In this document: piece after piece, positions 51,403-53,062 of the stretch | Position numbering within the stretch: the first letter of the stretch is position 1 | How the letters are laid out: every line of letters begins with the position of its first letter | DNA from: Candidatus Calditenuis fumarioli | GTDB lineage: Archaea; Thermoproteota; Nitrososphaeria_A; Caldarchaeales; Calditenuaceae | Direction of reading: 5' to 3' | Assembly (NCBI GenBank): GCA_030059665.1 | Contig: JANVYR010000001.1 | Span: 256,001 to 320,000 of the forward strand | Length of the DNA stretch: 64,000 nt | Position numbers and translations under genes: made by a program | Notes under the pieces: generated by a model | Database searches by the model: none | The model's input: only the letters and a program-made list of their open reading frames with translations | Told to the model about the DNA's origin: nothing

Positions 51403-51920
51403 GTGATCCCGAGAGAGGGAGTTGAAAGCCCAGCCCTCCATGTGTTGGTACACCCTCCAGAATGCGCTGTGATCCCGAGAGAGGGAGTTGAAAGGACTGT
51501 CCTTGAAAATTATCTTGACATCTCGAATTGTCGGTGATCCCGAGAGAGGGAGTTGAAAGCCAGCCCGAGGGACCGGATGAGGTCCCCCACCTCCCCGGGG
51601 TCGAGTGATCCCGAGAGAGGGAGTTGAAAGAGCAGCATCCTCGGGCTCGTCGCGAACAGCTCGTACTCCTGGAGTGATCCCGAGAAAGGGAGTTGAAAGA
51701 TGGATCTGCGTCTCTGTTGAGCTCCATGAACCTCATTATCAGGGGTGATCCCGAGAGAGGGAATTGAAAGTATCCTGAAGGCCACCGCCTGTTCGTCCCG
51801 CGCTCTCGGTTTATTGTTTAGTGATCCCGTGAGAGGGAGTTGAAAGTCCGCCGTAGGCAGCCGTCCGGCGGTGTTCCTCACGAACCGCCCGTTCGTAATC
51901 CCGAGAGGGGGAGTTGAAAG
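51403..51920 (+). CRISPR. CRISPR array: 8 x 26-nt repeat GTGATCCCGAGAGAGGGAGTTGAAAG, 7 spacers (40, 39, 45, 43, 45, 50, 48 nt)
   Basis: Repeats start at 51403, 51469, 51534, 51605, 51674, 51745, 51821, 51895; the last four carry substitutions; 3' TTGAAAG end and leader position give + orientation. Confidence 0.97.
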
Positions 51921-51985
51921 GTCCGACCAGCGCCGTGCGAAGGGCGACGAGGTCCTTATAGCCCGTCTCTGCGACGGTCTGATGG

Positions 51986-52252
51986 TTGAGGCAGGCGAAG
52001 TACCTGGTCGAGGTCCGCGCTGCCAAGAGGGCCTTCAGGGTCGACAAAGAGCTCGAGGAGGCTCTGAAGGGAACCCTCAGCTCGAAGATGATCTCCAGGA
52101 TGAAGCGGGAGTACGTCGAGTGCCCGGTCGCCGGCAAGGAGGTGGCCTTCCTCCTCTGCTACAGCTGCGTCTCCTTCATCCGAAGGGTATCGGGCGTCGT
52201 CCACTGCGAGGGCGTCGAGTTCCGCATCAAATCGAAGGGGGAGGGCGGTTGA
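51986..52252 (+). CDS. Small archaeal hypothetical protein with Cys/His cluster
   Basis: ECPV...LCYSC...HC; host-like codons. Confidence 0.7.
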   Translation: MRQAKYLVEVRAAKRAFRVDKELEEALKGTLSSKMISRMKREYVECPVAGKEVAFLLCYSCVSFIRRVSGVVHCEGVEFRIKSKGEGG

Positions 52253-52506
52253 ACCAGGGCCTGATGATCTCGGGGATCCTCGTGGCGCTCTTCGGCTTCA
52301 TCATCGCGGTGATGGGTTTCCTGATGTTCGCGCTCTTCGTGCCGTTGGGGGTGCTGATGTTCATCGCTGGCATCTACGCCAAGCCCTCCGAACCCGTCGT
52401 GCCCAGCGACCCGAGCAAGAAGTTCTGCTGGTACTGCATGGAGGAGATAGGGAAGGAGGAGAAGGTGTGCCCGTACTGCGGACTGGAGCAGCTGGACCGA
52501 GAGTGA
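52249..52506 (+). CDS. Small two-TM protein with C-terminal Zn ribbon
   Basis: Hydrophobic hairpin, then CWYC-x10-CPYC; TTG 52249 overlaps the upstream stop. Confidence 0.75.
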   Translation: MNQGLMISGILVALFGFIIAVMGFLMFALFVPLGVLMFIAGIYAKPSEPVVPSDPSKKFCWYCMEEIGKEEKVCPYCGLEQLDRE

Positions 52507-52580
52507 GTTGTGGTCCGCCTGACCCACGTGCCCTCACCGACCGGCCCGGAGGCCTGCTCGGGCACGCTTAGGCGCGGACC
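52506..52580 (-). ncRNA. Candidate single-hairpin H/ACA pseudouridylation guide RNA
   Basis: Lower stem GGUCCGC/GCGGACC, upper stem CGUGCC/GGCACG, tandem GA/GA K-turn, C(UCCG)G tetraloop, ACA right after the lower stem, 15 nt from upper stem to ACA. Confidence 0.7.
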
Positions 52581-53062
52581 GTTCTTCGGTTGTGCTCCGG
52601 CTCCTTAAGGAGCTTTACGCCAGACCGAGGGAGTCTTGAAGAGTCGTACCCAAAGACCATCAGGTCGCGTCCCCAACACCTCCCCGCACGGCTAAGCGGT
52701 CCTACGGACCAGAGACCCACCCGTCCCCCACTTCGTTGGCTCCGCTGAAAGGCCGCCGTTACGGATCCCGCATCTCCGTTACGCGATCCGGCATCGGGCT
52801 CATTGGTTTTCAACTGAATCAATTGGCAGTACAATGTTTGACAACTGCCCATCAATAGCGCTCACCAGAATTTACATTGCTTGAAACCACGTGAAATTTC
52901 CGATCAATCATCTAGCAAATTGCTGAACATTTGGAATCCGCAAAGAATAAGACAGTCCTTCAGCAAGATTTATGAGCTGCTCGGTTTTATGGCGACGACA
53001 AGATTGACGATGACCGGAATTGCAACTCAATTCGTCAATGAGGGTGGGGGTGAGTTGGCAAA

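What the first reader, a model, noticed from the sequence alone, without database searches (positions are those of the whole stretch)
52506..52580. Candidate H/ACA guide RNA aimed at 23S rRNA helix 69
Minus strand: GGUCCGC-GCCUAAG-CGUGCC-C-GA-GCA-GGCC-UCCG-GGCC-GGUC-GGU-GA-G-GGCACG-U-GGGUCAG-GCGGACC-ACA. It has every archaeal H/ACA element: two stems, a K-turn for L7Ae, a UNCG cap and ACA 15 nt from the upper stem. The 3' pocket strand GGGUCAG pairs with CUGACCC and the 5' strand UAAG with CUUA. This matches the crenarchaeal-type H69 sequence as I recall it, ...CUCUGACCC-U-CUUAAGG, placing the U equivalent to yeast 25S Psi2266 in the pocket. The 5'-side pairing is short and leaves one rather than two unpaired target bases.
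Basis: partly seen in the sequence, partly recalled or inferred. Interest (0 to 1): 0.75.

Follow-up and report, generated by a model that had tools for sequence, protein, structure and literature searches.

The report
Archaeal H/ACA guide RNA for helix 69
This is very probably a real, uncatalogued small guide RNA of a hot-spring archaeon that tells the pseudouridine synthase Cbf5 to modify one uridine in helix 69 of the large ribosomal RNA; it is a sound new member of a well-known RNA class, not a new kind of system.

Summary
The 72-nt hairpin on the minus strand (52580-52509) is exactly as described. It fits the measured rules for productive archaeal box H/ACA guides: 7-bp lower stem, 7-nt pocket strands, 10-layer stem up to the K-turn G.A pairs, and ACA 14 nt from the pocket-closing pair. 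Rfam gives only sub-threshold hits, all to Pyrococcus H/ACA families. The best aligns it to the helix-69 motif of Pab40.

Orthologues occur in 5 of 6 same-genus genomes, 2 genomes of a sister genus and 8 metagenome contigs. Guide strands, K-turn and ACA are conserved, while the stems change compensatorily.

The organism's 23S rRNA contains the predicted target once, at U2670 (E. coli U1923, yeast Psi2266). This is the best site in all its rRNA; 0 of 300 shuffled guides match as well. In the sister genus the guide reads GAGUCAG where the 23S reads CUGACUC, so guide and target co-vary.

The relatives correct one detail. The 5' strand pairs with UUAAGG and leaves U and C unpaired. This genome alone has a U-to-A change that creates one mismatch.

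The same uridine is an experimentally proven Psi in Sulfolobus islandicus. In five relatives a LAGLIDADG intron sits exactly inside the target. The scan has found similar H/ACA guides before on other DNA, including a helix-69 guide in Caldarchaeum.

The parts
52509..52580 (-). Whole single-hairpin box H/ACA sRNA, 72 nt from the first G of the lower stem to the last A of ACA
   Evidence: Sequence read. Sub-threshold Rfam hits only to H/ACA families HgcG, HgcE and Pab91. Conserved in 7 relatives' genomes and 8 metagenome contigs.
52574..52580 (-). Lower stem (H1), 5' strand GGUCCGC
   Evidence: Pairs with 52512-52518. Invariant within the genus. In the sister genus two pairs changed on both sides.
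52568..52573 (-). 5' guide strand of the pseudouridylation pocket, GCCUAA (plus G52567 of the closing pair)
   Evidence: Relatives carry CCUUAG, CCUUGG or CCUUAAG, complementary to 23S UUAAGG(U). Only this genome has A instead of U at 52570. Duplex energy is -1.6 here against -5.7 kcal/mol in relatives.
52558..52567 (-). 5' strand of the 'GA stem': closing G, CGUGCCC, then the GA of the K-turn
   Evidence: The G.U closing pair, 7 Watson-Crick pairs and 2 sheared G.A pairs make 10 layers, the value found for productive archaeal guides (PMC4652768). Compensatory changes at four pairs.
52539..52557 (-). Apical part: G-C pair of the K-turn C-stem, 4-bp stem and variable loop
   Evidence: The G27-C46 pair is invariant. 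Loop sequence and length vary among copies, as expected for a non-functional cap.
52534..52538 (-). K-turn bulge GGU followed by GA (L7Ae site, 3' strand)
   Evidence: GGUGA is invariant in the genus; the sister genus has CGUGA or UAGGA. It aligns to the UUCGAUGA K-turn of Pab40 motif 3.
52526..52533 (-). 3' strand of the GA stem, GGGCACG plus closing U
   Evidence: Pairs with 52560-52567. The closing pair is G.U in some copies and G-C in others, which only works on this strand.
52519..52525 (-). 3' guide strand GGGUCAG
   Evidence: Seven Watson-Crick pairs with 23S CUGACCC (LSU 2663-2669), immediately 5' of U2670. Invariant in the genus. It is GAGUCAG in the sister genus, whose 23S reads CUGACUC.
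52512..52518 (-). Lower stem, 3' strand GCGGACC
52509..52511 (-). ACA box, 14 nt from the pocket-closing pair
   Evidence: Invariant in all 16 copies. The spacing lies within the 14-15 nt rule (PMC2377435; PMC4652768).
52605..52608 (-). Candidate TATA element (TTAA inside GCTCCTTAAGGAGC), 25-28 nt upstream of the lower stem
   Evidence: An A/T tetramer (TTAA, ATAT or ATTA) sits at the same distance in all six genus copies, within otherwise unconserved G+C-rich flanks. The sister genus has ATATAT there. The promoter role is inferred, not shown.

Best explanation
A stand-alone gene on the minus strand makes a ~72-75 nt single-hairpin box H/ACA sRNA. L7Ae binds its K-turn. Cbf5 (through its PUA domain) binds the lower stem and ACA, together with Nop10 and Gar1. 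The open pocket pairs with 23S rRNA. The 3' strand GGGUCAG pairs with CUGACCC, the 3' strand of helix 69. The 5' strand pairs with UUAAGG(U) just after the helix. This leaves U2670 and C2671 unpaired, so U2670 (E. coli U1923, yeast Psi2266 position) enters the Cbf5 active site and is isomerised to pseudouridine. Shown here: anatomy, conservation, compensatory changes, target presence and uniqueness, guide-target co-variation, and the protein genes. Inferred: transcription, RNP assembly and the modification itself. In this genome the 5' duplex carries one A x A mismatch. It is therefore weak, which published work shows can be tolerated when the 3' duplex is strong.
For: (1) Sequence and fold are as described.
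(2) All four Rfam E-value hits but one are H/ACA families. The best (HgcG, E = 6.7e-4) aligns the RNA without indels in the upper stem or K-turn to Pab40 motif 3. That motif guides a helix-69 Psi in P. abyssi (PMC2377435).
(3) The geometry fits published rules for productive guides: lower stem 7 bp (rule 7-9), GA stem 10 layers, 14 nt to ACA.
(4) Orthologues occur in 5/6 congeners, 2/3 genomes of a sister genus and 8 metagenome contigs. On the 8 genome copies 95% of cells pair and 7 pairs have double changes (1 of 500 shuffles reaches that); slid controls pair 36-49%. The G.U pairs fit only the minus strand.
(5) The own LSU rRNA has CUGACCCUCUUAAGG once. U2670 is the top-scoring site across 23S and 16S, and 0/300 shuffled guides reach it.
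(6) U2670 aligns with E. coli U1923, six nt after U1917.
(7) In sister-genus genome G009 the guide G-to-A change matches a 23S C-to-U change.
(8) Cbf5 with TruB_N, TruB_C_2 and PUA domains, Nop10 and L7Ae are encoded; Gar1 is a weak hit.
(9) The same uridine is a deletion-validated Cbf5/H/ACA-dependent Psi in Sulfolobus islandicus: U2066, equivalent to yeast Psi2266 (PMC11077068).
(10) An A/T patch lies at -25 to -28 in all copies.
Against: There are no expression or modification data. The single-sequence fold z-score is only -1.9. RNAfold and RNAalifold partly close the pocket (GCCU with GGGU). This genome's 5' guide has an A x A mismatch, giving -1.6 kcal/mol against -5.7 in relatives. An alternative register with only one unpaired base, or a bulged target A, is energetically comparable. 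Gar1 scores below the Pfam cut-off (22-23 bits); the same search also missed the Sulfolobus control. No T-tract terminator follows ACA. Sister-genus orthologues have 9 rather than 10 GA-stem layers and 16-17 nt to ACA, outside the 14-15 nt rule. Their 23S also has a U at the 1921 position, so the site chosen there is uncertain. The G-C to A-U guide-target change could pass through G.U and rests on one lineage. No classic guide was found in two other genera of the family that share the same target sequence. The 8- and 16-sequence alignments were fitted to the model's structure.
Confidence: 0.85

Rival explanations
1. It is a genuine H/ACA sRNA, but in this particular genome the guide is impaired or decaying. 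The private U-to-A change in the 5' strand weakens target binding enough that U2670 is modified poorly or not at all.
For: Only this genome among 16 copies has GCCUAAG; all others have CCUU(A/G)G or CCUUAAG. The 5' duplex energy drops from -5.7 to -1.6 kcal/mol.
Against: In P. abyssi the 3'-guide duplex matters more than the 5' one, and guides with weak 5' duplexes are efficient (PMC2377435). All other elements are intact here (7 Watson-Crick pairs on the 3' guide, K-turn, ACA). S. islandicus sR148 modifies the same site with a 6-bp single-sided duplex. The change could also be an assembly error.
Confidence: 0.1
2. It is an H/ACA sRNA whose physiological substrate is a different RNA or a different uridine, for example another rRNA site, a tRNA, or the U1921 position in the sister genus.
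For: H/ACA motifs can guide up to three sites. The sister-genus geometry (16-17 nt to ACA) would place U1921 rather than U1923 at the 14-nt position. The second-best rRNA site here is LSU U1656, with 5+6 pairs.
Against: The helix-69 site is clearly the best: 13 pairs including 7 Watson-Crick on the 3' guide, with 0/300 shuffles reaching it. Both guide strands are conserved to match it in 16 copies. This genome has C, not U, at the 1921 position. tRNAs and mRNAs were not scanned.
Confidence: 0.05
3. It is a conserved K-turn hairpin with another role and no guide function, such as an L7Ae-binding regulatory element or a transcript-end structure of the convergent neighbouring genes.
For: K-turn hairpins that bind L7Ae also occur in mRNA leaders. 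The hairpin abuts the stop codon of a convergent 211-aa ORF, 3 nt from ACA. The pocket strands can partly pair with each other.
Against: The unpaired pocket strands and ACA are the most conserved parts, while the stems and flanks vary. Both strands match one rRNA site, with co-variation. Flanking genes differ between subgroups of the genus, yet the RNA is retained. The spacing matches H/ACA rules exactly.
Confidence: 0.03

Closest known systems
Pab40 / Pf7 (Rfam HgcG, RF00064), motif 3, of Pyrococcus
   Same: Best Rfam alignment. Same G.U closing pair, 7-bp stem, GAG...GA K-turn layout and 15-nt stretch from the last upper-stem Watson-Crick pair to ACA. Both are aimed at helix 69 of 23S rRNA (P. 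abyssi U2016).
   Different: Pab40 is a three-hairpin RNA; this one is a single hairpin. The score is 21 bits against a gathering threshold of 77. The guide strands differ. Pab40 motif 3 targets a loop uridine of helix 69, whereas this RNA targets the 3'-strand uridine six nt after the 1917 position. The lower stem is 7 bp rather than 10.
Sulfolobus islandicus sR148 (PMC11077068)
   Same: Guides Psi at the same rRNA position (23S U2066, equivalent to yeast Psi2266), validated by gene deletion. It depends on Cbf5.
   Different: sR148 is an atypical H/ACA RNA without lower stem or ACA. It uses a single 3' guide and a 6-bp duplex, and it also guides U2060 (E. coli 1917). The present RNA is a classic bipartite guide with lower stem and ACA, and it cannot reach 1917 because that base lies inside its 3' duplex.
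Single-hairpin classic archaeal H/ACA sRNAs (Pab91, Pab160 = Pf9; S. islandicus sR115, sR435)
   Same: One hairpin with lower stem, pocket, K-turn in the upper stem and ACA tail. Geometry of 10 GA-stem layers and 14-15 nt.
   Different: Different guide sequences and targets. No sequence-level homology above Rfam thresholds (Pab91 14.8 bits against 71).
Yeast snR84 (guide for 25S Psi2266)
   Same: Same target position by the equivalence given in PMC11077068. The snR84 assignment itself comes from my own knowledge and was not checked here.
   Different: It is a eukaryotic two-hairpin H/ACA snoRNA with H box, no K-turn, and Nhp2 instead of L7Ae. No sequence comparison was made.

Membership tests
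Archaeal box H/ACA guide sRNA | Hairpin-internal loop-hairpin with a lower stem of 7-9 bp and loop strands of 5-11 nt | tested here: met
   Lower stem 7 bp; pocket strands 6-7 and 7-8 nt. Rules from PMC2377435 and PMC4652768.
Archaeal box H/ACA guide sRNA | K-turn or K-loop (tandem sheared G.A plus 3-nt bulge) in the upper stem, 10 stacked layers from the pocket-closing pair | tested here: met
   GA (52559-52558) faces GGU-GA (52538-52534). The G.U closing pair, 7 Watson-Crick pairs and 2 G.A pairs give 10 layers. The motif is invariant in the genus. L7Ae binding itself was not tested.
Archaeal box H/ACA guide sRNA | ANA (usually ACA) box 14-15 nt 3' of the pocket-closing pair | tested here: met
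   ACA at 52511-52509, 14 nt after U52526. Invariant in 16 copies. Sister-genus copies have 16-17 nt, outside the rule.
Archaeal box H/ACA guide sRNA | Bipartite complementarity to a stable RNA that leaves a U-N dinucleotide unpaired | tested here: met
   Seven Watson-Crick pairs on the 3' guide plus 6 pairs with one mismatch on the 5' guide around U2670-C2671 of the own 23S. This is the top site, and 0/300 shuffled guides equal it. Relatives pair 6-7 bp on the 5' guide without a mismatch.
Archaeal box H/ACA guide sRNA | Guide and target co-vary between species | tested here: met
   G009 has guide GAGUCAG with 23S CUGACUC, against GGGUCAG with CUGACCC here. This is one independent event only. 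The 23S of the second sister-genus genome, G011, was not recovered.
Archaeal box H/ACA guide sRNA | Genome encodes Cbf5 (with PUA), Nop10, L7Ae and Gar1 | tested here: met
   Cbf5 has TruB_N, TruB_C_2 and PUA domains. Nop10 scores 56.7 bits and L7Ae 109 bits. Gar1 scores only 22-23 bits, below the cut-off.
Archaeal box H/ACA guide sRNA | Expressed as a small RNA that associates with Cbf5 and L7Ae | not testable with these tools
   No transcriptome data. Only a conserved A/T patch at -25 to -28.
Archaeal box H/ACA guide sRNA | Target uridine is pseudouridylated in a guide-dependent manner | not testable with these tools
   The equivalent U is a Psi in S. islandicus and yeast. Nothing is known for this organism.
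Rfam HgcG / HgcE / Pab91 families | Score at or above the family gathering threshold | tested here: not met
   21.4 bits against 77, 19.7 against 50 and 14.8 against 71. No hit in the gathering-threshold scan. The RNA is the same class but not a member of these curated families.

The most novel reading that the evidence does not exclude
In five relatives (G001, G002, G003, G009, G010) a 0.76-0.85 kb intron interrupts the 23S gene exactly between the two halves of this guide's target (CUGACCCUC | UUAAGG). In the two relatives whose intron ORF was scanned, it encodes a LAGLIDADG endonuclease. The guide's two strands therefore pair with the two different exons. The most novel reading not excluded is that the H/ACA RNP does more than make Psi: by binding both exon ends it could act as a chaperone or checkpoint for exon alignment and ligation after intron excision, or mark only correctly spliced 23S rRNA.
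Probability: 0.06. Interest if true: 0.7.

Novelty: new member of a known kind. Interest (0 to 1): 0.35.

Why it matters
It adds an unannotated guide RNA gene to a poorly studied hot-spring archaeal lineage. Earlier notes of this scan place the genome in Calditenuaceae/Caldarchaeales; I did not verify that. I found no paper on H/ACA RNAs in Aigarchaeota. The finding makes a precise, testable prediction: Psi at 23S U2670.

It also shows that the helix-69 3'-strand pseudouridine (yeast Psi2266, Sulfolobus Psi2066) is served by three different guide designs: classic H/ACA here, atypical H/ACA in Sulfolobus, and a snoRNA in yeast. That argues the modification is old and selected, even though the guides have been replaced or remodelled.

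The overlap of the target with a polymorphic homing-intron site offers a natural system to ask how rRNA splicing and RNA-guided modification are ordered.

Tried and rejected
- Rfam at gathering thresholds found nothing at this locus; the window's only hit is a tRNA.
- My first structure string was off by one column, so one search is void; one search is the correct count.
It returned only chance bacterial hits, so I have no organism names from that source.
- Covariance model R1 found no further orthologues in the 76 genomes of the order beyond the genus and one sister-genus genome. A hit in G064 and weak hits in G007, G008 and G024 carry other guide sequences, or none, and are not orthologues.
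- Two weak hits in the own genome lack ACA and were dismissed.
- A pattern search over the order added one orthologue, G011. Its other hits match the background rate of the reversed-pattern control. The G024 hit was read and is not a hairpin guide.
It is not supported by the other 15 copies.
- UNCG tetraloop as a feature: rejected because it is not conserved.
- Plus-strand transcript: rejected because the G.U pairs become A x C and there would be no ACA or GA motifs.
- Protein-coding reading: overlapping ORFs of 58-122 aa have no support, and indels of 1-2 nt occur among copies. The two flanking candidate ORFs have no Pfam hit.
- Literature searches for H/ACA RNAs in Aigarchaeota and for guides spanning rRNA intron sites found nothing relevant.

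Full report
**Observation.**
- Lower stem: GGUCCGC/GCGGACC.
- Pocket strands: GCCUAAG and (U)GGGUCAG.
- Upper stem: CGUGCCC/GGGCACG.
- K-turn: a GA facing GGU-GA.
- Apical part: a 4-bp stem with a UCCG loop.
- ACA box directly after the lower stem.

RNAfold reproduces the two stems, but the energy is only modestly better than shuffles (z = -1.9). Both RNAfold and RNAalifold close part of the pocket. The single sequence is therefore suggestive, not conclusive.

**Known RNA families.** Rfam at gathering thresholds reports only a tRNA elsewhere in the window. A permissive scan of 52300-52900 gives four hits. Three are archaeal H/ACA families: HgcG (Pab40), 21.4 bits, E = 6.7e-4; HgcE (Pab105), 19.7 bits; and Pab91, 14.8 bits. 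All are far below the gathering scores, so the RNA is not a member of those curated families.

The HgcG alignment is still instructive. The RNA aligns to motif 3 of Pab40 without indels through the upper stem and K-turn (GAG-A ... UCG-UGA), and with the same distance to ACA. Pab40 motif 3 is the P. abyssi guide for a helix-69 pseudouridine, 23S U2016 (PMC2377435).

**Fit to published structural rules.**
- Muller et al. 2008 require a lower stem of at least 7 bp, loop strands of 5-11 nt and ANA 14-15 nt from the target. They found the 3'-guide duplex matters more than the 5' one.
- Toffano-Nioche et al. 2015 found that productive archaeal guides have exactly 10 stacked layers from the pocket-closing pair to the second G.A pair, and 14-15 nt from that closing pair to ANA.
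- Here the closing pair is G.U (G-C in several relatives), followed by 7 Watson-Crick pairs and 2 G.A pairs, which makes 10 layers.
- The 3' strand GGGUCAG (7 nt) plus the lower stem (7 nt) gives 14 nt to ACA.
- All geometric rules are met in this genome.

**Conservation.**
- BLAST over 40 relatives finds clear homologues, 79-89% identical over just the RNA, in five of six same-genus genomes. The flanks are not alignable between subgroups.
- A covariance model built from the six sequences and a pattern search add two genomes of a sister genus, G009 and G011.
- A metagenome scan adds eight more copies.
- Invariant or nearly so across copies: the ACA, the K-turn GA motifs, the G-C pair next to the K-turn, and both pocket strands.
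- Variable: the apical loop in sequence and length, and the stems, which change in a compensatory way.
- Six genus sequences: 94% of cells paired, 3 pairs changed on both sides.
- Eight genomes (model-fitted alignment): 95% paired, with 7 pairs and 12 cells changed on both sides. These are reached by 1 and 0 of 500 shuffles. Partners slid by 1-3 columns pair only 36-49%.
- Several pairs alternate G.U with G-C or A-U, which fits only the minus strand.

**Target.**
- The genome's LSU rRNA (contig 2, 3682 nt) contains CUGACCC once, in the context UCCUGACCCUCUUAAGGUAGCC.
- I scored every U in 23S and in the two 16S pieces for bipartite pairing. U2670 is the best site, with 7 Watson-Crick pairs on the 3' guide and 6 pairs with one mismatch on the 5' guide. 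None of 300 shuffled guide pairs reaches that score.
- Aligned to an E. coli 23S gene, U2670 falls on the U of GGUCC, six nt after the U of the AUA loop triplet. That is E. coli U1923 in the 3' strand of helix 69. That E. coli rrn copy lacks 3 nt upstream, so the standard numbers come from my knowledge of the canonical sequence.
- The Sulfolobus islandicus Psi map gives independent support. It lists 23S U2060 (E. coli 1917, yeast 2260) and U2066 (yeast Psi2266), also six nt apart. Both are lost when the atypical H/ACA RNA sR148 is deleted (PMC11077068). The predicted site is thus a proven H/ACA-dependent Psi in another thermophilic archaeon.

**Register of the 5' guide.** The relatives show otherwise. 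Fifteen of sixteen copies carry CCUUAG, CCUUGG or CCUUAAG. These pair with UUAAGG(U) over 6-7 bp and leave the canonical U-C dinucleotide unpaired.

This genome alone has CCUAAG. In the conserved register that gives G.U, A-U, A x A, U-A, C-G, C-G, G.U. The isolated 5' duplex is worth -1.6 kcal/mol here against -5.7 in relatives. Published work shows weak 5' duplexes are tolerated when the 3' duplex is strong. The guide is probably still active, but a weakened guide, or an assembly error, cannot be excluded.

**Guide-target co-variation.** In sister-genus genome G009 the 3' guide reads GAGUCAG and the 23S reads CUGACUCUC. The opposite strand of helix 69 also changes, GGGAG instead of GGGGG. A guide G-to-A change therefore accompanies the target C-to-U change. 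This is one lineage only, and a G.U intermediate is possible.

The sister-genus RNAs also differ in geometry. They have a 9-bp lower stem, 9 GA-stem layers and 16-17 nt to ACA. Their 23S has U at both the 1921 and 1923 positions. Which uridine is modified there is open.

**Machinery and promoter.**
- Cbf5 is encoded with TruB_N, TruB_C_2 and PUA domains. Nop10 and L7Ae are present.
- The Gar1 candidate scores below the Pfam cut-off. The same search also fails on the Sulfolobus control genome, so this is weak evidence either way.
- An A/T tetramer lies 25-28 nt upstream of the lower stem in all six genus copies, and ATATAT lies at the same place in G009. The flanks are otherwise G+C-rich and unconserved. 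This is where an archaeal TATA box would be expected; the promoter role is an inference.

**Intron at the target site.** In G001, G002, G003, G009 and G010 the 23S gene is interrupted by 764-850 nt exactly between CUGACCCU(C) and (C)UUAAGG. The introns of G001 and G009 encode LAGLIDADG endonucleases. G000, G005, G007 and G008 lack this intron.

G000's LSU has about 630 extra nt elsewhere, between E. coli positions 1112 and 1600. In intron-bearing relatives the two guide strands pair with different exons, so the canonical substrate exists only after splicing. I found no paper describing such an arrangement. Whether it has any functional meaning beyond fixing the order of events is speculative.

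**Distribution limits.** Two other genera of the family (G007, G008, G010) have the same target sequence. No classic guide for it was found there by the model or the pattern. They may use a divergent or atypical guide, or none.

**Verdict.** This is a classic single-hairpin box H/ACA sRNA that most likely guides Psi formation at 23S U2670 (helix 69, E. coli 1923, yeast 2266). It is a new member of a known kind, in a lineage where I found no such RNAs described. Earlier notes of this scan place the genome in Calditenuaceae and report a helix-69 H/ACA guide in Caldarchaeum; I did not verify either. Confidence is 0.85 and interest is modest.

Noticed in passing
Loci L049 (G001), L050 (G003), L051 (G002), L052 (G009), L102 (G010); the homologous site in this genome is LSU position 2671/2672 on contig 2 (L001): A 764-850 nt intron is inserted in the 23S gene of five relatives exactly at CUGACCCUC | UUAAGG (E. 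coli 1924/1925 region). A LAGLIDADG endonuclease ORF was found in the two introns checked (G001, G009). Presence is polymorphic even within the genus: absent in G000, G005, G007 and G008. The first intron bases (GAG-UAAG / GGG-UUAAG) can pair with the CUUA that starts exon 2, as expected for a bulge-helix-bulge splice motif.
   Followed up: partly
L001 (G000 contig 2, 363427-367108, minus strand): This genome's LSU rRNA is 3682 nt against a 2987-position model. About 630 extra nt lie between the equivalents of E. coli 1112 and 1600, probably another intron at a different site.
   Followed up: no
L002 / L003 (G000 contig 2 end and contig 1 end): The 16S rRNA gene is split between two contig ends at model position about 829/830. 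This suggests the assembly broke inside the gene, possibly at an intron or repeat.
   Followed up: no
window 51871-52506 (+): A convergent 211-aa ORF without a Pfam hit ends 3 nt from the ACA box. Its C-terminus (CPYCG...) and the protein-atlas neighbours suggest a zinc-ribbon membrane protein. The C-terminal coding sequence is conserved in G005 and G002.
   Followed up: partly
window 52581-53062: An unusually long (about 480 nt) spacer without a convincing ORF lies upstream of the sRNA. It includes the palindrome GCTCCTTAAGGAGC at 52600-52613, which holds the candidate TATA element. The spacer is not conserved in congeners.
   Followed up: partly
L042:439-522 (+) (G064), L103:1501-1577 (-) (G007), L105:1501-1575 (-) (G024): Weak covariance-model hits with H/ACA-like layout (K-turn, ACA) but other pocket sequences. 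They are probably further, different H/ACA guides in related genomes.
   Followed up: no
L101 (G008 contig 4): G008 holds a second, 85%-identical LSU fragment with the CUGACUC form of helix 69. This is either a divergent rRNA copy or contamination of that assembly.
   Followed up: no
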